Sequence record: NC_019517.1
Length of the DNA stretch: 64,000 bases
Reading direction: 5' to 3' (one strand)
Origin: Escherichia phage FV3
In this document: one piece after another, positions 13,808-21,482 of the stretch
How positions within the stretch are numbered: the first letter of the stretch is position 1
Layout: each line of letters starts with the position of its first letter
Notes under the pieces: model-generated
Seen by the model: the letters and a program-made list of their open reading frames with translations, nothing else
What the model was told of the DNA's origin: nothing
Database searches by the model: none
Program-made: the position numbers and the translations under genes

Positions 13808-14008
13808 ATGGCTGATTTTTGTAAAGATTGCTCTGAAGAGTTGTTTGGCTTTGACTGCAAAGATTTGGAAGGTCTGATCACTGAGGATCAGTGGAATGAA
13901 GGCTATGCAGCACCTGTTATTTGTGAAGGTTGTGGCTATACCTATGTTGACCATAAAGGTAAGCGCGTCAAGCCGTCTGAAGATGGGTCGTGTTGGGAAT
14001 ACTACTAA
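13808..14008 (+). CDS. Small zinc-ribbon-like protein (66 aa)
   Basis: CKDC...C and CEGC cysteine pairs. Confidence 0.4.
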   Translation: MADFCKDCSEELFGFDCKDLEGLITEDQWNEGYAAPVICEGCGYTYVDHKGKRVKPSEDGSCWEYY

Positions 14009-14038
14009 TTATAAAAAGAAAGGGGCCAAACGGCCCCT
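14005..14038. terminator. Bidirectional rho-independent terminator between convergent early and late operons
   Basis: GGGGCC-AAAC-GGCCCC hairpin flanked by an A-tract upstream and a T-tract downstream. Confidence 0.6.
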
Positions 14039-14054
14039 TTTTATTTACCCCTTG

Positions 14055-17000
14055 TTAACGAGAAAAGGTTGCGTAGGCTTCTAGACGATACTGCTGGTCA
14101 CCAGGGAACATAACACCTATAGAGGCTGTCCCTAGAATCCTGCCTTCCTTTCCAGACTCCATTCTGAACCCTACCCATCCTGAACTCCTTGCAGCCTCGA
14201 TGTTGTCGCTATACCCGAAAGTGGCAAGATCGTCAACACCAGCTCCAAACAGCAACTGAAGCTGACTTCTCGGAAGCCCTATAATTTCAGGAATATATGC
14301 ACCAAAGTACACCATCTGCCCTACCTTAGGACCGCTGCCGTACTCCATCGGCTTGCTTGTAGAGAAAGTCTTCATACCAGAAGTCCCTGCCGGATTAGGG
14401 TATGCCCCGTTTGTTGCTGTACCTATCCACATTCTCCACTGTGGTGTCATCTGTTTGACAGTAAAAGATGTTGAAGACGTTTTGCGCCCTGCATCATCAG
14501 TAGCTACAAACGTTATAGTGACATTACCAGGAGCTTTAAATGTTACCAGTCCTGTGGTAGCATCCACTGTTGCAATGTTGGTATTACTACTTTCCCAAGT
14601 CTTTCTGATTCCTGGCACATTGGAAGGGGTAATAGAGGGTTCCTGCATCTGCAGTTTACCACCTACAATCCCTATCCCGTTACCTGGATTATACAACGCA
14701 CCAACCTCGTCTACAATGTTACCTGCCTTGAGGCTGTACTTTTTAGAGAAGTTGTAAGTGCCGTTATATGTGTGTGTCCCTGAGAAGGTTACATCTGCCT
14801 TACCGTTGGAGATGCAAACCAAAGCATACTTCCTGTCAGGCAACTGTGCCCCAGTTTCTGGGTGAGTTTTACCAACCTGGAACACACTCGGGTCAGTGGA
14901 GTCATGGCTATCACTAATGGAGTTTGGGCCACCCATCAGCTGTGACAAACAATTCCTTACCCATGTCCAGTTATTATCACTGGAGAAGTCCACAGTCAAA
15001 TCGAATACAACCCACTCATTTGGCTTCCATACAGGAGTTGTAATCAACTTACCAACACCTCCACCCTGAAGGGTTGGAGACTGTTCAGTGATCAGGGCAG
15101 AGTATGCCAGAGTGCCTAACTGCATGGTCTGGCTTGCTGTCCTCACTACCTTAGAATCAACATCTGTGAAGTTGTTGATGATTTGGAATGTACCATAAGT
15201 GTTTTTACAGGTAATTCTGGCGTTCAGTGTGTCAATCTTCCTCACATCTGCCATAGCAGTGTTAGACACAGAGAAGTCAGAAGCTCTAGCCGAGTTTGCT
15301 GCAACAGCTGGATCAACGTTGAGAGTTGCGTTGAACTGGCAGGCAGGAGTAACCAGTAGCTTGTTATCACCTATTTGCTTCCATGAAACACTTTGAACAG
15401 GGAGATTCCATTTAATACCTGAGAAAACTTTAGCAACCCTTGGTCCCAGAGCTCCAGTCCTGTTGTCTTTACAGCTCATGGACATGGTGATCGTTGACGG
15501 AGTGGCCTGACCAAACAATTGCTGTGCTTTTGCAGAGGACATGGTGTAGAAATTGTCCTTAACAAACTCATCAGCCGCTAACGATCCGTCAGATCTCCAC
15601 CATTGCACCTGGTAGCCTGTCTTATCCCAGCCACCAACCTGCTTCAAGTCCTCCCAAGAGATTTCCAGATCCCCAGTGGTAGGGTTGATCGCCGCAGTTC
15701 CCGGTGTTCCAGATGACCATATTGGGATATCGAACCACGCTGGTTTAACAGACTGCACTGCGTTAGGTCCTATTGCAGCAGCAAGTTGTTGACCCATCAA
15801 TACGCGAGTATCTTTCACATAACCCCACTCGATCATAGACCCAGAGTAACCCTCTTTCTTGTAGGCAGGGGATCCGTTCAAATGGATAAGTCGGCTTGTG
15901 CCAAAGTTATATGCCCCGCCACCATTATCATCTGCAAAATTGTATATGATTCTATCCCTAATATCTTTCCATGCCCTACCGCCAATCTCATAGTCATGGT
16001 CATAGCATCTTTGCAGCGTTGTCCAGCAGATGATTGCCATCCTTCTACCGTTACTGAAGCCGAAAGCTTGATCGTTAAGTTCTCTCCACAAGTAGCAGTT
16101 GGTGGTCCACATGGCTCTGTGAATGTTGTACCAGTTTATAGATTTGGCAGAGTTGTTCCACTGAGTTCCGGGTAATTCAGGCCATACTGCATTAACCAGC
16201 ATGTCCTCTGTCCCTGCATCTATCAAGAATCCTCTCACCTTCTTACCCATACCTACTCTGTCTTTAGCAATCCATGAGCCAAACAATCTCAGTTTTGGAC
16301 CATAAACATCCTCTTCGCGATGCTCAAGAGAAACATACTTTAGATATACCGTAGGGTCACCGTAGGTACCATCACAAACACTCTTATGCATGTTCTCACC
16401 AAGGTCCAGACGGATACCTGTGAGAGTTTTGGTATCATCTGTGAACTTATCTGTCAAATCAAACTCGTACCACCACCACCCGGCTCCAAGTAAAACTTTC
16501 TTACAGCGCTTAGAGTCTGTGTCGGATATTCTTTTATCCCCTGCATATGGTGAGTCTGCAAACTGGTAGTGCAGAGCAACTTCAAAAGGATGTGTGGATG
16601 TTCCGTTTTCTGCAAGAACTTGCTTCCCGATCAGATCGCATTTAATAATCATCACGACACGTTTGTACCCCCAGGTTAACGGAACAACAAACGGATATCT
16701 CCCTCCATCCATATTAGCATGTATAGCTGCGAAATTTATGTACGGGTCAACAGCATTACCTAGAGTTTCAGGTCCAGGAATCATCTTGTACTTCTTGACC
16801 TGACCCATAATATAGTCACTGCCATAGGTTGCAGCCTCGAAGCAAGAACCACTATCAGGCAGTTCACCAGGTCCCCAGAATATTGCTCCGGAACAGTTGT
16901 AGAACCACTTGTTAGGATCATAGTTGTTCTTGAAGGTCTGAACCTCGTTTGCCTGCTTCAACAAGAAAACATGAGTATCTGTGAAGATTGCAGGATTCAC

Positions 17001-19688
17001 TCTTGCCTGTCGATCAGCATATCCCGGTTGGTTAAACCACTGATTGCAAGAATAGTCCCGCATATAGTCATAATCAGAGTATTTGTTTGCATCCTCGTTC
17101 CAACACAAGTTCAGGTTGGTGCCGCCCATGCACACAATATATTCTTCAACGTATTTATCACTTCTGGTGGGAATACCTACGAACCATCTATTAACAGGTT
17201 CGTTCCAAGCAGTACGCTCATCCTTAACGCAGATTGCAATCCAGTCATGTGTCCCTGTTTTCTTGCACACATCGCGCTTCATACCGTAGTAGAATTCTTT
17301 AGTATTTGGCTCAGGTGCACTTATCAGGTAACTCCACGCCTGGTCTGCATATGTTCCGTTGGTGCGAGGGTCATGATCAAAGGCATACATGATGATTCTT
17401 TCCCCACCAAGATGTTCACCAAGGGTGACTTTGATGTTCACATCTCCGTAACCGTTGCGAACAACATCCATATTATCAATAGAAATGCCTCTAGGAGTGT
17501 AGGCAATTTTCAGTGAGTTATCCTCACTAGTGCCACCAAGGGTGATCCCAATATTGTTTGTCGTCCCGTCAGCATATCTTACTGTGGCTTCCCAGCGTAT
17601 TCCGAAATATCCTACGTCATGGCTGACAATTTTTAATGTACGAGCACCAGAGTTAGGTTTTCCAGGATCAGGCCAAGGGTTTGGGTGTTCGTGAACAGTC
17701 AACGATGTCCCGTTTTGTTCGTTGACCTGCAACATTTTACCACCCCTTCCGTTTGGGTTGAACTCCCATAGGGCCTGTGTCTGCACCAAGTTATCATAGG
17801 TATTCCGTCGCTGATTATAAATCTCTTGGGTAACATCATAAGTTACTGATCCAGCATCCATTCTATGGAGTCTGACCATATACGATGTATCCCCTTCTAC
17901 TGCAGGCTGGGCCGCATTTAGTCCAAAGTATACAGTGTCATTAACATGGAACTGTTTGTTTCTACCGACAGTATGCCATTTACCATCAGACGGATACGCC
18001 GGAACAATAGTGTTCCAGTTCAAAGTCCTTGTTGTGTGGGTCCTGCCTGTGCCATGTTTGTCATGATAGGTTATTTTTACAGAGTACAGGCCACGTCTGT
18101 TAACATTCCTGTTATACTGGGTAACAATAACTTCGTTGGCCCCACCGTGGTTCCAGTTAGTAGAGAATTGGTAATTTGCATCTGTAACAACCGTACCTGC
18201 AGCATTTACCAGTTCAATCTTGTCAATAATGAACGTAGCACCCTCTGGCTGAGGCTTTAATTTCATCTTGACCGTATCACCAATGTAAATATTGCTAACG
18301 CTGCTAACACCGTTAACGTCGAAAATATCATCAACACCCCAACTGTCTACTGGGACATTTTTATACCAATTCTCAGGGACCTCCGTGAACCCTTGGCTAT
18401 TAAGTCTGCCGCCAAACAGGTTATTAGATCCTGCAAAACTTCCCCTCGGGATGCCTGACCACCAAAGTTTGCCATTAACAACAGTAAAGGTTCCTAAAAA
18501 ACCTTCTCTGTGAATGCCTTGGAAATAAACACTTTCTGTCCAGCTAACTGGGAGGCGTTGCTCAACGTATTTGGCTGTGGCAAGAGCTTGATAGTGGATA
18601 AAATTGGCCCTAGGGCTATTGTTTGCAGATTGTGCGCCAATATCATTGCAAAGGTTGCGAGAGAATCCACGGTACTGCTTAGTACCATTGTTGAAGAAAA
18701 TGCCACTTGTGCCGTACCCACGAGCCATTATTACCTCATGGGTGTAGGTGATATTCAAGGCACGCCATGTATCATCTCCCCAAACATCTTGCCCGTAGAA
18801 TACGTTAACAAGTTGCTGGTCATCAGGTCTGTGCATTCTTTGTGTTACAACCACTGCCCCGTTCGGACCGCACATGAACCCTTTCCACTCCTCATCTGTA
18901 GGAATGCCCCTCAAATCGTCACGGGTAATCTGAGCAGGGGGCCAAACGAGAGTGTTTCTACTATTGTTTCTCAGAAAGTCATATCCAGCAATCCAGAAAC
19001 CTCTAGGACCACCGAAAATAACAGAGTTATCATGCACCTCACAGTTAATGCTTGGGTTTTTCCAAGGACCTGTTTCAGGATTTTCCGATGTTTCACCAAT
19101 CTTTACAGGGGTTGCATGCTGGTTTTTATCCACATGCAAAGATCCGTAGGTGTTGTTACCAGATCCGTACAGGTGTAAAATGCCAGTGCCTTCTGCCTCT
19201 GCCATAACCCAGACGGTGTTGTTAATACCACCCATCACCTCAACAAGGCGCTCTGGGTGGGTGTCAAGGTGCAATCCTTTAACGATTTGTTCAGGAAGAG
19301 GTGTCCACTCCCTTACACAAACATCATTACCGCCTGCAGCATCAGACCCAATAAGCCCTGCAGTACAGCCGATGTAGAAAAACTGATTATCAAAAGTTCG
19401 GATCACAAACGCACGGTCTGCTCTCCACACATGATCAACGTTCCAGGCAGCCTCATTAGGGTAGTTTATCGTGTCAAGATCCCCAGTCCTACACTCCCCG
19501 AACCTGTTGTACCCTGTGATATTAAGCTGACCATTGTCAAAAAGTATAGCTAAGCTATTTACATAGGCTACTGTAGTGCTTGTACCGTCACTGTTGTCTA
19601 TTGGGTATGACAGAACAGCAAGTTCCTTAACTCCACCCCTCTTATCGAGGAAATGACGACCAAGTTTTAGCAAAGGGATTGGAAGCAT
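14055..19688 (-). CDS. Giant tail-associated protein (1877 aa) with RCC1-like repeats and a Big_2 Ig-like domain; putative receptor-binding protein or depolymerase
   Basis: N-terminal YGSGNNTYGSLH-type repeats; C-terminal Big_2-like segment SSNTNIATVDATTGLVTFKAPGNVTITFVATDDAGRK; distal gene of the late operon. Confidence 0.55.
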   Translation of the reverse strand: MLPIPLLKLGRHFLDKRGGVKELAVLSYPIDNSDGTSTTVAYVNSLAILFDNGQLNITGYNRFGECRTGDLDTINYPNEAAWNVDHVWRADRAFVIRTFDNQFFYIGCTAGLIGSDAAGGNDVCVREWTPLPEQIVKGLHLDTHPERLVEVMGGINNTVWVMAEAEGTGILHLYGSGNNTYGSLHVDKNQHATPVKIGETSENPETGPWKNPSINCEVHDNSVIFGGPRGFWIAGYDFLRNNSRNTLVWPPAQITRDDLRGIPTDEEWKGFMCGPNGAVVVTQRMHRPDDQQLVNVFYGQDVWGDDTWRALNITYTHEVIMARGYGTSGIFFNNGTKQYRGFSRNLCNDIGAQSANNSPRANFIHYQALATAKYVEQRLPVSWTESVYFQGIHREGFLGTFTVVNGKLWWSGIPRGSFAGSNNLFGGRLNSQGFTEVPENWYKNVPVDSWGVDDIFDVNGVSSVSNIYIGDTVKMKLKPQPEGATFIIDKIELVNAAGTVVTDANYQFSTNWNHGGANEVIVTQYNRNVNRRGLYSVKITYHDKHGTGRTHTTRTLNWNTIVPAYPSDGKWHTVGRNKQFHVNDTVYFGLNAAQPAVEGDTSYMVRLHRMDAGSVTYDVTQEIYNQRRNTYDNLVQTQALWEFNPNGRGGKMLQVNEQNGTSLTVHEHPNPWPDPGKPNSGARTLKIVSHDVGYFGIRWEATVRYADGTTNNIGITLGGTSEDNSLKIAYTPRGISIDNMDVVRNGYGDVNIKVTLGEHLGGERIIMYAFDHDPRTNGTYADQAWSYLISAPEPNTKEFYYGMKRDVCKKTGTHDWIAICVKDERTAWNEPVNRWFVGIPTRSDKYVEEYIVCMGGTNLNLCWNEDANKYSDYDYMRDYSCNQWFNQPGYADRQARVNPAIFTDTHVFLLKQANEVQTFKNNYDPNKWFYNCSGAIFWGPGELPDSGSCFEAATYGSDYIMGQVKKYKMIPGPETLGNAVDPYINFAAIHANMDGGRYPFVVPLTWGYKRVVMIIKCDLIGKQVLAENGTSTHPFEVALHYQFADSPYAGDKRISDTDSKRCKKVLLGAGWWWYEFDLTDKFTDDTKTLTGIRLDLGENMHKSVCDGTYGDPTVYLKYVSLEHREEDVYGPKLRLFGSWIAKDRVGMGKKVRGFLIDAGTEDMLVNAVWPELPGTQWNNSAKSINWYNIHRAMWTTNCYLWRELNDQAFGFSNGRRMAIICWTTLQRCYDHDYEIGGRAWKDIRDRIIYNFADDNGGGAYNFGTSRLIHLNGSPAYKKEGYSGSMIEWGYVKDTRVLMGQQLAAAIGPNAVQSVKPAWFDIPIWSSGTPGTAAINPTTGDLEISWEDLKQVGGWDKTGYQVQWWRSDGSLAADEFVKDNFYTMSSAKAQQLFGQATPSTITMSMSCKDNRTGALGPRVAKVFSGIKWNLPVQSVSWKQIGDNKLLVTPACQFNATLNVDPAVAANSARASDFSVSNTAMADVRKIDTLNARITCKNTYGTFQIINNFTDVDSKVVRTASQTMQLGTLAYSALITEQSPTLQGGGVGKLITTPVWKPNEWVVFDLTVDFSSDNNWTWVRNCLSQLMGGPNSISDSHDSTDPSVFQVGKTHPETGAQLPDRKYALVCISNGKADVTFSGTHTYNGTYNFSKKYSLKAGNIVDEVGALYNPGNGIGIVGGKLQMQEPSITPSNVPGIRKTWESSNTNIATVDATTGLVTFKAPGNVTITFVATDDAGRKTSSTSFTVKQMTPQWRMWIGTATNGAYPNPAGTSGMKTFSTSKPMEYGSGPKVGQMVYFGAYIPEIIGLPRSQLQLLFGAGVDDLATFGYSDNIEAARSSGWVGFRMESGKEGRILGTASIGVMFPGDQQYRLEAYATFSR

Positions 19689-19736
19689 TGTGTTCTCCAG
19701 ATAAGAAAACCGCCCCGTCAGGAGCGGTCAGATATA

Positions 19737-21482
19737 TTAACGTTGTGCAATAACCACATCCACAATATCACCAACACCACAATATGTCAATTGTAGCAAG
19801 GTAACGCTGTTGGCTTTGTTGTTAATGACAGGGGTAGCCGACAGTATGGCATATTTATCGTGCAAAGTCACGTTGTGGCCTACAGCATCTTGAATGACAT
19901 AGATGATTGCAGTAAACGGGTAAGGTTTATCTTCAGCCGATGTTCCAGGCCATTGGCCTATTGTAAAATCCCCTTTCGCGTGGACAACATACATACTGGC
20001 CTGCCCGTTAGGTGTCCATGTCCCACTCGATGCGTCAACCTCCTCTAAATCAAAATCTACCTTCCCTGCGTGGAAAGTAGGGGCAGTAATAGTTTTACCA
20101 GCCTCAATTTCTTGAGAGGTGGTTATCTTACCACTAGAGTTAATGCCATTGCAGACAAAGTTGACATTAGAGAAGTCTGGCAGCCACCCAGTCACCGTGC
20201 CGGATATTTCAAGGTTGTGAAGATAAGTGGTTCCCGTACCTGCTGCGTTTAAACTAACATCTCCATTTACCTGCAAGTTGCGGGTAACGTTGCAGTTTTC
20301 AGAGTTTGCAGTTGTTGCAGTTAGAGTAGTGGTTGTCAGCTCGGTAATCGTACCTTTGTTGGCGGTAAGCCCTTCCCCTTCAAAAGTGGCACGCTCATTC
20401 ACCCTCAGAGTATTTAAAGATATGTTCTGGACAGATGCTGTGCCACGAATGACTATAGATCCGCCAACCTCTAAATCTCCATTGATCAGTGCATCTCCCG
20501 TGCTTTCAATATAGCTAGGGTAGATCATGGTGCCATCTACAGAGTAGGTTATCCCTGTAACGGTGCCTGTCACCTCAAGGTTCTTAACCCTGGTGGTCCC
20601 ATCAACCTGCAATGTCGGTTCGGTTGCTGCCTTCATGGAGTTACCACGAATGTACACGTAGTCAAAAAAGTTATTACCTAGACCATCAAAATGCACATCG
20701 TTGTTATTAGCCACTGGTTTCCCAGAAGTTATAGTGTCAGCTATAACTCTGTGGGTGACCACTTCATGAGGTTGCAGCTCTGTGCTTCTCCAGTCTGCAT
20801 GCTTAGGATCGCTCCACGCAAAAGTTAGTGTAGAAGTATTTGCAGTAAGGATTAGGTTCCTGAAGCGTGCAGTAGAATCCGCTCCATTAACAGGCCCGTG
20901 TAAGGTAAGGGTGCCACCAACTATAGTGTTAGCAAGTTCTGTAAGACCTTTTACCACCAAAGACCCTACAGTAACTTTCATCCCCTCCATGGCTTTAAAT
21001 ATGCTATCCACATAGTCAACAACAAACTCTGTGTTTGCTATAGACTCGGACTTATCGTCCATTGGAGGTGTAGGTACTCGCGGGTCACCTTCGAATCTTG
21101 GGCTGTTAAGTTTTGCGTAGTATTTTGCCATTACTGCAGAATCGGTATATAATCTCCAGTTCGGAGATTGTGAAGGATCTGCTGGCATCCTAACCGGGTT
21201 AGATTTTGATGCTGCTGGGGCGTACCACCACTGAGGGCCTGTATCCCCTTTAAACTCATACAACTGGTTAAAAACTGTTGTGGATGCACCATACGCCCAA
21301 GGGATTGGTGGCGTTTTAAAATAAAGGGTGTCAAGCATGGCTTTTCGTACCGTAGGGATGGTGGTCCCATCCTCTACGACAACTTCATCCACAGCGTTAC
21401 CGTTGACAATCAAGTGCAAACGTTCAGAATCAACAATTACTTGATCTACCGCCTGCTCGAAGCTTGTCATGTCTTGCGCCAT
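19737..21482 (-). CDS. Tail fibre / tailspike protein (581 aa)
   Basis: Repetitive beta-helix-like segments (NLEVTGTVTG, NLQVNGDVSL, NLEISGTVTG); position in fibre module. Confidence 0.5.
   Translation of the reverse strand: MAQDMTSFEQAVDQVIVDSERLHLIVNGNAVDEVVVEDGTTIPTVRKAMLDTLYFKTPPIPWAYGASTTVFNQLYEFKGDTGPQWWYAPAASKSNPVRMPADPSQSPNWRLYTDSAVMAKYYAKLNSPRFEGDPRVPTPPMDDKSESIANTEFVVDYVDSIFKAMEGMKVTVGSLVVKGLTELANTIVGGTLTLHGPVNGADSTARFRNLILTANTSTLTFAWSDPKHADWRSTELQPHEVVTHRVIADTITSGKPVANNNDVHFDGLGNNFFDYVYIRGNSMKAATEPTLQVDGTTRVKNLEVTGTVTGITYSVDGTMIYPSYIESTGDALINGDLEVGGSIVIRGTASVQNISLNTLRVNERATFEGEGLTANKGTITELTTTTLTATTANSENCNVTRNLQVNGDVSLNAAGTGTTYLHNLEISGTVTGWLPDFSNVNFVCNGINSSGKITTSQEIEAGKTITAPTFHAGKVDFDLEEVDASSGTWTPNGQASMYVVHAKGDFTIGQWPGTSAEDKPYPFTAIIYVIQDAVGHNVTLHDKYAILSATPVINNKANSVTLLQLTYCGVGDIVDVVIAQR

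What the first reader, a model, noticed from the sequence alone, without database searches (positions are those of the whole stretch)
14055..19688. Giant 1877-aa distal protein with RCC1-like repeats and a Big_2 domain
This is the largest gene in the window and the last gene of the late operon, abutting the bidirectional terminator. Its N-terminus has repeats resembling RCC1 beta-propeller blades (YGSGNNTYGSLH, FIGCTAGLIGSD), the centre is Trp-rich and enzyme-like, and the C-terminus contains a bacterial Ig-like (Big_2) segment. RCC1-like propellers are uncommon in phage fibres, so this may be a novel adhesin or depolymerase architecture.
Basis: partly seen in the sequence, partly recalled or inferred. 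Interest (0 to 1): 0.45.

Follow-up and report, generated by a model that had tools for sequence, protein, structure and literature searches.

The report
Giant RCC1–Ig tail accessory protein
This 1877-residue gene is the local copy of a catalogued but functionally uncharacterised rV5-like coliphage gene (rV5 gp27): a propeller-plus-Ig-domain protein that is most likely a dispensable, low-copy surface adhesin, with no sign of an enzyme.

Summary
The ORF is real: window 14055-19688, minus strand, 1877 aa, the largest in the window. It is the ortholog of rV5 gp27 (= BASEL bas49_0041/bas54_0041) and is present in at least 119 public phage records at 80-94% nucleotide identity. Big_2 is confirmed (33 bits, cut-off 22.8). 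The RCC1-like N-terminus is also confirmed, but not by Pfam on this protein. The evidence is PHROG 4219 (E 7e-8), a 99.5% profile match to shorter positional orthologs that do pass Pfam RCC1, and HERC1/2 RCC1-like domains as the only PDB hits. The centre is Trp-rich, but "enzyme-like" is unsupported. It has no family in Pfam, NCBIfam, PHROGs or PDB and no relatives among 1.84 billion representatives. The confident parts of the models resemble Ig arrays and carbohydrate-binding jelly rolls. The gene evolves under purifying selection (pN/pS 0.11), has a variable two-allele C-terminal tip, lies between two intrinsic terminators, was barely seen in rV5 virion proteomics, and tolerates transposon insertions on E. 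coli K-12. Best reading: a low-copy accessory glycan adhesin, anchored by its conserved N-terminus. This is an already-catalogued gene of modest interest.

The parts
14055..19688 (-). Complete CDS, 1877 aa plus stop; ortholog of rV5 gp27 / bas54_0041 (phrog_15684)
   Evidence: full-length PHROG match; 94% nt identity to public Vequintavirus records; locus tags.
19569..19688 (-). Residues 1-40: N-terminal head (MLPIPLLKL...G..VKE), invariant across three phage genera; candidate virion-anchoring peptide (inferred)
   Evidence: M1, P3, I4, P5, G19 and K21 are invariant in the alignment with Phapecoctavirus and Seunavirus orthologs. Lowest diversity within the genus, 0.011.
18369..19568 (-). Residues ~41-440: RCC1-like repeat domain, seven blade-like units (approx. 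43-82, 83-135, 147-197, 213-255, 268-312, 313-360, 383-435)
   Evidence: phrog_4219 E 7.2e-8; hhalign 99.5% to Pfam-RCC1-positive orthologs; only HERC1/2 RCC1-like domains retrieved from PDB; last blade aligns with nieznany gp214 360-440. The AF2 model here has low confidence, so the fold itself is not shown.
17409..18341 (-). Residues ~450-760: two to three Ig-like beta-sandwich domains
   Evidence: AF2 pLDDT 60-80, all-beta; Foldseek hits to S-layer, pilin and immunoglobulin tandem domains.
15729..17408 (-). Residues ~761-1320: lineage-restricted central region rich in Trp, Tyr and Cys; no detectable family
   Evidence: Only 2 hits, both within the family, among 1.84e9 representatives. No Pfam, PDB, NCBIfam or PHROG family. 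Composition. Residues 837-929 and 1143-1321 are unmodelled, pLDDT <50.
16302..16694 (-). Residues ~999-1129: confidently predicted beta-sandwich inside the central region, probably a CBM-like jelly roll
14649..15701 (-). Residues ~1330-1680: further FN3/Ig-like beta-sandwich domains. Residues 1436-1583 are the least conserved in distant homologs (16-19% identity).
   Evidence: AF2 secondary structure and pLDDT; Foldseek hits to cadherin, NUP210 and S-layer arrays; conservation.
14493..14636 (-). Residues 1685-1732: Big_2 (bacterial Ig-like group 2, intimin-like) domain
   Evidence: Pfam PF02368, 33.1 bits, above the gathering score; intimin hits in PDB and NCBIfam; collinear with the Big_2 of the short orthologs.
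14058..14438 (-). Residues 1751-1877: variable C-terminal tip domain with two allele classes; candidate ligand-binding end
19708..19729 (-). Terminator-like hairpin plus U-run in the 48-nt gap just upstream of the start codon, followed by GGAG; equals rV5 t028
   Evidence: dG -15.5, z -2.95. Identical in 8 Vequintavirus loci. Analogous hairpins with different sequences precede the orthologs in PVP-SE1, 4MG and nieznany.
14019..14040 (.). Bidirectional intrinsic terminator between the giant gene and the convergent + strand gene 13808-14008; equals rV5 t026/t027
   Evidence: dG -18.7, z -3.07.

Best explanation
The gene encodes a non-essential, probably low-copy accessory adhesin of the virion tail periphery in rV5-like phages.

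Shown:
- The architecture is a conserved N-terminal head and RCC1-like repeat domain, a chain of Ig-like/FN3-like beta-sandwiches, a lineage-specific Trp-rich central region containing a CBM-like jelly roll, a Big_2 domain, and a variable C-terminal domain.
- It is the enlarged version of the 570-890-aa 'RCC1-like + Big_2' protein encoded at the same position in Seunavirus and Phapecoctavirus. About 1190 residues are inserted between propeller and Big_2.
- It is under purifying selection.

Inferred:
- The invariant N-terminal module docks the protein onto the baseplate or lateral-fibre network.
- The beaded arm projects outward.
- Its carbohydrate-binding-type modules and allelic tip make weak, reversible contacts with surface glycans of natural hosts. 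This would raise adsorption or extend host range without being needed on E. coli K-12.
- Transcription reaches the gene only by read-through of an upstream intrinsic terminator, which keeps its copy number below that of the main fibres.
For: - Identity and synteny. It is the last gene of the tail-fibre cluster in four genera.
- Domains: Big_2; RCC1-like; Ig arrays and CBM-like sandwiches with no catalytic fold.
- Collinearity with the short orthologs.
- Conservation gradient typical of receptor-binding proteins. In distant homologs the N-terminus is 67-70% identical, residues 1436-1583 are 16-19% identical and the C-terminus is 33-37% identical. The tip is allelic.
- Purifying selection: pN/pS 0.106 over 9 orthologs.
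- Dispensability: bas54_0041 tolerates transposon insertions on E. coli K-12 (bioRxiv 10.1101/2025.11.20.689424; ortholog identity checked).
- Low abundance: 3 peptides and 3.1% coverage in rV5 virion MS (PMC3606486 Table S5).
- Terminator-like hairpin directly upstream, conserved in position across genera.
- General knowledge (Fraser et al. 2006, cited from memory and seen in the reference lists): Ig-like domains on phage particles act as accessory carbohydrate binders.
Against: - Virion location is not established. The rV5 peptides are non-tryptic and low-scoring, in the same tier as the non-structural rIIA, and the authors did not list gp27 among detected tail proteins.
- Cryo-EM of Bas49/Bas54 found density for only three fibres and none was assigned to this protein.
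- No binding partner or ligand is known.
- The propeller fold was not recovered by AlphaFold (pLDDT <50 over residues 217-436).
- About 270 central residues are unmodelled (837-929 and 1143-1321) and could hide a catalytic site.
- Terminator function is predicted only.
- Which end attaches to the virion is inferred from the conservation pattern alone.
Confidence: 0.55

Rival explanations
1. It is an enzymatic fibre (depolymerase). The orphan Trp-rich central region (~840-1320) would be a novel glycan hydrolase, lyase or esterase flanked by binding modules, as in other 'Swiss-army-knife' fibres of these phages.
For: - Neighbouring fibre genes carry glycosidase or deacetylase domains (annotation; BASEL paper).
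- The centre has many invariant acidic and aromatic residues, e.g. E915, D1058, E1161-D1162, E1234, E1279, E1287.
- About 270 of its residues are unmodelled.
Against: - No catalytic family in Pfam, NCBIfam, PHROGs or PDB sequence searches, even at E up to 10.
- No relatives outside the family among 1.84e9 representatives.
- The GH85 matches cover ~180-190 residues at 4-5 A rmsd, and the confident parts of the model are all-beta, so they most likely involve the beta-sandwich accessory domains (inference).
- No beta-helix or TIM-barrel signal.
Confidence: 0.12
2. It is a capsid or neck decoration protein (Hoc-like or whisker-like) rather than a tail or baseplate component. It would use Ig-like domains for non-specific adherence to mucus or cell surfaces.
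For: - The C-terminal 290 aa match phrog_215 'structural protein with Ig domain', filed under head and packaging, at E 1e-49.
- The architecture is monomer-like beads on a string with no trimerisation module.
- It was not seen among the baseplate fibres by cryo-EM.
Against: [quoted passage not shown]
- The N-terminal homologs are annotated as tail proteins (phrog_11922), although that is annotation only.
- PHROG categories for Ig-domain families are heterogeneous. The same region also hits 'major tail protein' PHROGs.
Confidence: 0.1
3. It is not a stable virion component. It would be a late-expressed protein that acts off the particle, for example released at lysis to bind host debris or glycans, or a decaying gene kept only by linkage.
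For: - Very weak MS signal.
- Upstream terminator.
- Dispensable on K-12.
- The gene is annotated in fragments in several public genomes, e.g. V18 x4, APECc02 x3, and naswa, ime, Alma and ECP26 x2.
Against: - Strong purifying selection over 5.6 kb (pN/pS 0.106) and an intact full-length ORF in all 9 sampled orthologs. Homologs of 1711-1976 aa are conserved at 45-57% identity. This argues against decay.
- The N-terminus has no signal-peptide-like hydrophobic segment (by inspection).
- The conserved N-terminal module shared by positional orthologs is the usual signature of a particle-attachment domain (inference).
Confidence: 0.1

Closest known systems
rV5 gp27 (rv5_gp027, YP_002003529; 1878 aa) and its Vequintavirus orthologs, e.g. 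bas49_0041 and bas54_0041 'lateral tail fiber protein with intimin domain'; phrog_15684
   Same: Same gene. Full-length collinear match at 85-94% nt identity. Same position between the gp28-type fibre gene and the bidirectional terminator, and the same upstream hairpin t028.
   Different: Allelic differences only. The window carries the rV5-type C-terminal tip, not the MaxBurger/FFH2-type. Public records do not annotate the RCC1-like N-terminus.
Short positional orthologs: PVP-SE1 gp40 (604 aa), 4MG_038 (567 aa), phAPEC8-like nieznany gp214 (891 aa); phrog_11922 'tail protein'
   Same: Last gene of the tail-fibre cluster, preceded by a terminator-like hairpin. Homologous N-terminal head and RCC1-like domain (40% identity over ~200 aa; hhalign 99.5%). 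Big_2 domains lie downstream and the order is collinear.
   Different: They lack the ~1190-residue insert: the Ig array, the orphan central region and the FN3-like domains. Their C-termini differ: two Big_2 only, or Big_2 plus a different ~300-aa distal domain.
RCC1/BLIP-II-type (IPR009091, phrog_4219) virion proteins of Septuagintavirus W70 (W70_237-239) and Rak2-like jumbo phages (GAP32 gp001)
   Same: RCC1-like repeat proteins encoded by large enterobacterial myophages and detected in virions by MS. The window N-terminus hits the same PHROG at E 7e-8.
   Different: They are ~40-kDa stand-alone proteins encoded elsewhere in the genome, without Ig-like domains. The authors interpreted them as DNA-condensation factors by name transfer. 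No function has been tested.
Ig-like-domain accessory proteins on phage particles (T4 Hoc, lambda gpV C-terminal Big_2 domain, T5 pb6, N4 tail sheath)
   Different: Those are capsid or tail-tube decorations of 1-4 domains. This is a 208-kDa separate protein with a propeller and an orphan central region, encoded with the fibres.
Cellular RCC1-like domains (RCC1, HERC1/HERC2 RLDs, BLIP-II)
   Same: Same repeat signature, and the only PDB sequences retrieved by the family profile.
   Different: Similarity is marginal (E 0.66-5). There is no relation to Ran-GEF or chromatin function. The phage domain is extracellular and structural in context.

Membership tests
rV5 gp27 orthologous group (phrog_15684) | Full-length collinear similarity to the family profile | tested here: met
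   phrog_15684 matches residues 1-1877 to profile 1-1878, 4447 bits. 108 phage records cover at least 80% of the gene at 80-94% nt identity.
rV5 gp27 orthologous group (phrog_15684) | Conserved genomic position: downstream of the gp28-type fibre gene, upstream of the bidirectional terminator and the convergent gp26-type gene | tested here: met
RCC1-like repeat beta-propeller (Pfam RCC1 PF00415 / RCC1_2 / WD40_RLD) | Match to a Pfam RCC1 model above its gathering score | tested here: not met
   The window protein gives only RCC1_2, E 0.1, 12.9 bits against 22, and nothing at E<=1 on the full protein. The homologous orthologs do pass: 24.3 and 36.9 bits against 21.7 (precomputed Pfam).
RCC1-like repeat beta-propeller (Pfam RCC1 PF00415 / RCC1_2 / WD40_RLD) | Significant profile homology to recognised RCC1-like families | tested here: met
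   phrog_4219, E 7.2e-8. hhalign 99.5%, E 6.5e-23, to Pfam-RCC1-positive orthologs. HERC1/2 RLDs are the only PDB hits.
RCC1-like repeat beta-propeller (Pfam RCC1 PF00415 / RCC1_2 / WD40_RLD) | Seven tandem ~50-60-aa repeats folding into a seven-bladed propeller | tested here: inconclusive
   Seven motif-bearing units are visible by inspection. The AF2 model is unreliable here (pLDDT <50 for 217-436), and Foldseek returned no propeller.
Big_2 (PF02368) bacterial Ig-like domain | Match above the Pfam gathering score | tested here: met
   33.1 bits against 22.8, residues 1685-1732. Intimin is the top hit among PDB sequences.
Canonical trimeric tail fibre or tailspike | Trimerisation and fibre modules: coiled coil, triple beta-helix, knob, or C-terminal intramolecular chaperone (peptidase S74) | tested here: not met
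   No such Pfam, PHROG or PDB hits. The models match monomeric tandem Ig, cadherin and S-layer arrays. Oligomeric state itself was not testable.
Phage depolymerase / glycan-modifying fibre | Recognisable catalytic domain (GH, PL, esterase or deacetylase) by sequence or fold | tested here: not met
   sequence; fold. Residues 837-929 and 1143-1321 are unmodelled, so a novel fold is not excluded.
Virion structural protein | Physical presence in purified particles | not testable with these tools
   Literature only. rV5 MS gave 3 peptides, 9 spectra and 3.1% coverage with low scores. The protein is listed as an rV5 virion protein in Table S6 of PMC11370258. It was not assigned in Bas49/Bas54 cryo-EM.

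The most novel reading that the evidence does not exclude
The RCC1-like + Ig proteins encoded at the end of the tail clusters of rV5-like, PVP-SE1-like and phAPEC8-like phages form a distinct, so far unrecognised class of monomeric, terminator-attenuated, low-copy 'extra fibre'. In Vequintavirus, the 560-residue orphan centre of this protein would be a new glycan-binding or glycan-processing fold that determines infection of particular natural hosts. This could be one of the conditionally essential fibre genes hinted at by HIDEN-SEQ.
Probability: 0.2. Interest if true: 0.55.

Novelty: already known. Interest (0 to 1): 0.27.

Why it matters
rV5-like phages are among the most frequently isolated broad-host-range coliphages and are candidates for therapy and biocontrol. 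Which of their roughly nine fibre-like genes does what is still unclear. This is their largest gene. It is conserved under purifying selection yet dispensable on K-12, so it probably matters only on natural hosts or in natural environments. Three points from this analysis can guide experiments on host-range determinants: its N-terminus is an RCC1-like module shared with shorter orthologs, it looks like a binder rather than an enzyme, and it appears transcriptionally attenuated. The analysis also shows that the 'chromosome condensation' labels on phage RCC1-like proteins come from name transfer. The finding does not reveal a new kind of system.

Tried and rejected
- AlphaFold2 on residues 1-780 and 760-1877 with 16-17-sequence alignments gave mean pLDDT 50 and 56. 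The propeller and much of the centre did not fold, so the fold searches inform only on the beta-sandwich domains. They could test neither the propeller nor an enzyme fold. All structure and fold-search quotas were used.
- The exhaustive HMMER search with residues 760-1440 found only family members.
- Two word-indexed homology searches with the N-terminus returned few proteins. The second did recover Seunavirus orthologs with precomputed RCC1 and Big_2 Pfam hits. It also showed an unidentified family, PF26918, which P0001 (a 93%-identical relative of the window protein) also carries. That family is absent from the local Pfam copy.
- No paralog of the protein exists elsewhere in the window.
- Profile searches of the centre against PDB, Pfam and PHROGs gave only noise: carbonic anhydrase E 0.85, LptD E 0.03, and a weak phrog_32204 segment with best E 1e-4.
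- I tried to use Table S6 of PMC11370258 as evidence that PVP-SE1 gp40 is in virions. I rejected it because product labels and locus tags appear shifted by one and the bold marking is lost. The PVP-SE1 proteomics paper is not held.
- I considered a secreted or cell-wall-anchored bacterial-type protein, following the rV5 note 'cell wall surface anchor'. I rejected it because there is no signal peptide or sorting motif and the gene sits in a phage structural cluster.
Full report
**The feature.** The window carries an uninterrupted ORF on the minus strand from 19688 (ATG) to 14055, encoding 1877 aa. It is the longest ORF in the window. It lies at the distal end of a ~45-kb block of minus-strand structural genes. 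A GGAG sits 8 nt before the ATG. Trp makes up 3.1% of the protein and 5.2-5.3% of residues 1131-1435.

**Identity.** The DNA matches 119 phage records. In 108 of them a single match covers at least 80% of the gene, at 80-94% identity. All listed records that carry a taxonomy line are Vequintavirus (rV5-like) coliphages. The gene is rV5 gp27 (1878 aa, 208 kDa). RefSeq annotates it 'Ig-like domain-containing protein'. The BASEL phages annotate it 'lateral tail fiber protein with intimin domain' (bas49_0041, bas54_0041, bas58_0041). It matches phrog_15684 ('unknown function') end to end. More distant full-length homologs (45-57% identity, 1711-1976 aa) occur on ~110-140-kb contigs from public sequencing runs.

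**Big_2.** Pfam PF02368 matches residues 1685-1732 at 33.1 bits, above the gathering score of 22.8. Intimin is the best hit among PDB sequences and in NCBIfam.

**RCC1-like N-terminus.**
- Pfam on the window protein is sub-threshold: RCC1_2 at E 0.1.
- Residues 42-196 hit PHROG 4219 'regulator of chromosome condensation' at E 7.2e-8.
- tblastn showed that the first ~200-290 residues are shared with the last gene of the tail-fibre cluster of Phapecoctavirus (nieznany gp214, 891 aa, 40% identity) and of Seunavirus (PVP-SE1 gp40, 604 aa; 4MG_038, 567 aa).
- A profile-profile comparison of the two groups gives 99.5% probability, E 6.5e-23.
- Two of those short proteins pass Pfam RCC1 (24.3 and 36.9 bits against 21.7). 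They also match the RCC1-like-domain model WD40_RLD over ~290 residues, and Big_2. Database relatives carry the same precomputed Pfam set.
- A joint profile retrieves only three PDB sequences at E<=10. All are HERC1/HERC2 RCC1-like domains, but the E-values (0.66-5) are not significant on their own.
- By inspection, seven 'beta-strand + G-x-N-x-x-G-x-L-G' units span residues ~43-435, and the last one aligns with the last blade of the short orthologs.
- The fold itself could not be confirmed. AlphaFold2 with a 17-sequence alignment gave pLDDT <50 over most of this domain.

**The rest of the protein.**
- Residues ~450-760 are predicted, at moderate confidence, to form Ig-like sandwiches.
- Residues ~1330-1750 form further FN3/Ig-like sandwiches, with Foldseek matches to cadherin, NUP210 and S-layer arrays.
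- The central ~560 residues (761-1320) have no family in Pfam, NCBIfam, PHROGs or PDB sequences. An exhaustive HMMER search of 1.84 billion representatives with residues 760-1440 found only two proteins, both family members.
- Within the centre, residues ~999-1129 are confidently predicted (pLDDT 75-87) as a beta-sandwich.
- No catalytic fold or enzyme family appears anywhere. 'Enzyme-like' therefore remains unsupported. It is not excluded, because residues 837-929 and 1143-1321 are unmodelled.

**Relation to the short orthologs.** Comparison with nieznany gp214 is collinear. The propeller start, the propeller end and the Big_2 region align in order. The giant is therefore the short 'RCC1-like + Big_2' architecture with ~1190 residues inserted between the two.

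**Evolutionary pattern.**
- In distant homologs the N-terminal domain is the most conserved part (67-70% identity). Residues 1436-1583 (16-19%) and the C-terminus (33-37%) are the least conserved.
- Among nine Vequintavirus orthologs the whole gene has pN/pS 0.106.
- The C-terminal 127 residues are the most diverse part (aa diversity 0.186, pN/pS 0.28). They fall into two allele classes, ~58% identical between classes and 82-95% within.
- A conserved N-terminus with a variable distal end is the usual pattern of phage receptor-binding proteins. This reading rests on established knowledge and is an inference here.

**Regulatory context.**
- The hairpin at 14019-14040 is a bidirectional terminator between convergent genes. 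It was published for rV5 as t026/t027.
- A second terminator-like hairpin with a U-run (19708-19729, dG -15.5) fills the 48-nt gap immediately upstream of the start codon. This is rV5 t028, and it is identical in eight other Vequintavirus loci.
- Hairpins of different sequence but the same layout (GC stem, tetraloop, U-run, GGAG, start) precede the orthologs in PVP-SE1, 4MG and nieznany.
- No promoter is predicted between hairpin and start. The gene therefore appears to be expressed by terminator read-through, which should keep its level low (inference).

**Published experimental evidence.**
- In rV5 virion proteomics, gp27 had 3 peptides, 9 spectra and 3.1% coverage. The peptides were non-tryptic and low-scoring, and the non-structural rIIA scored similarly. 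The authors did not list gp27 among detected tail proteins.
- Cryo-EM of Bas49 and Bas54 resolved only three baseplate fibres out of nine annotated fibre genes.
- HIDEN-SEQ transposon mapping of Bas54 reports that bas54_0041 tolerates disruptive insertions. It is thus dispensable for infecting E. coli K-12 and for forming infective virions. Some fibre genes become conditionally essential on clinical isolates. I verified that bas54_0041 is the ortholog.
- RCC1/BLIP-II-type proteins were detected in virions of Septuagintavirus W70 (phrog_4219) and of the jumbo phage GAP32. They were interpreted as DNA-condensation proteins purely from the family name.

**Interpretation.** The best-supported reading (confidence ~0.55) is a non-essential, low-copy accessory adhesin of the tail periphery. 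It would be anchored through its conserved N-terminal head and propeller. It would project a beaded arm of Ig-like and CBM-like modules with an allelic tip that binds surface glycans of natural hosts. Three rivals remain, each with the evidence listed in its own section: a novel enzyme in the orphan centre (~0.12), a capsid or neck decoration (~0.10), and an off-particle or decaying protein (~0.10). Strong purifying selection argues against decay.

**Verdict.** The gene is already catalogued in over a hundred genomes and has been hit by transposon mutagenesis. What this analysis adds is the RCC1-like assignment for the Vequintavirus form, its derivation from shorter RCC1-like + Big_2 orthologs, the lack of any enzyme signal, the allelic tip, and the conserved upstream terminator. 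Interest is modest (0.27).

Noticed in passing
window 19708-19729 (minus strand); L005 3962-3983; L002 8962-8981; L003 7964-7981: A terminator-like hairpin with a U-run lies directly upstream of the RCC1-like/Ig gene in four phage genera. The sequences differ but the layout is the same. This suggests conserved attenuation of the last tail-cluster gene. It is published for rV5 as t028, but its conservation across genera is apparently not discussed.
   Followed up: partly
public records matched by window 14055-19688: Fifteen GenBank records named 'Campylobacter phage' (MG0656xx, host C. jejuni) carry this E. coli Vequintavirus gene at ~82-89% identity. They are probably coliphages mislabelled or co-isolated in a Campylobacter phage collection. 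A 98%-identical fragment is also deposited as 'Eggerthella lenta' protein (P0018), which is likely assembly contamination.
   Followed up: no
public orthologs of window 14055-19688: In several genomes the gene is annotated as 2-4 fragments: V18 x4, APECc02 x3, and naswa, ime, Alma and ECP26 x2. These are either sequencing frameshifts in a 5.6-kb gene or real inactivation during laboratory propagation, which would fit its dispensability on K-12.
   Followed up: no
PHROGs 4219, 7220, 16766; PMC11370258, PMC5259590: Phage RCC1-like families are filed under 'DNA, RNA and nucleotide metabolism' as 'regulator of chromosome condensation', and papers infer a DNA-packaging role from that name. Their fusion to Ig-like domains at the end of tail-fibre clusters suggests surface or structural roles instead, so the label is a likely annotation artefact.
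   Followed up: partly
window 19762-19790 (minus strand): A sigma-70-like promoter match (TTGACA-17-TATTGT with an upstream TG, 10 of 12) lies inside the 3' end of the upstream 581-aa fibre gene, just before the hairpin. Any transcript from it would meet the terminator at once. It may be a chance match.
   Followed up: no
window residues 241-280 of the protein (about 18849-18968): A local diversity hotspot (aa diversity 0.15 against ~0.02 in the flanks) sits in a loop-like segment between propeller blades 4 and 5. It could be an exposed interaction surface of the propeller.
   Followed up: no
P0001 and Seunavirus homologs P0022-P0027: The precomputed annotation lists a Pfam family PF26918 shared by the Vequintavirus giant and the short orthologs. 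It is absent from the local Pfam copy, so its identity and position could not be checked.
   Followed up: no
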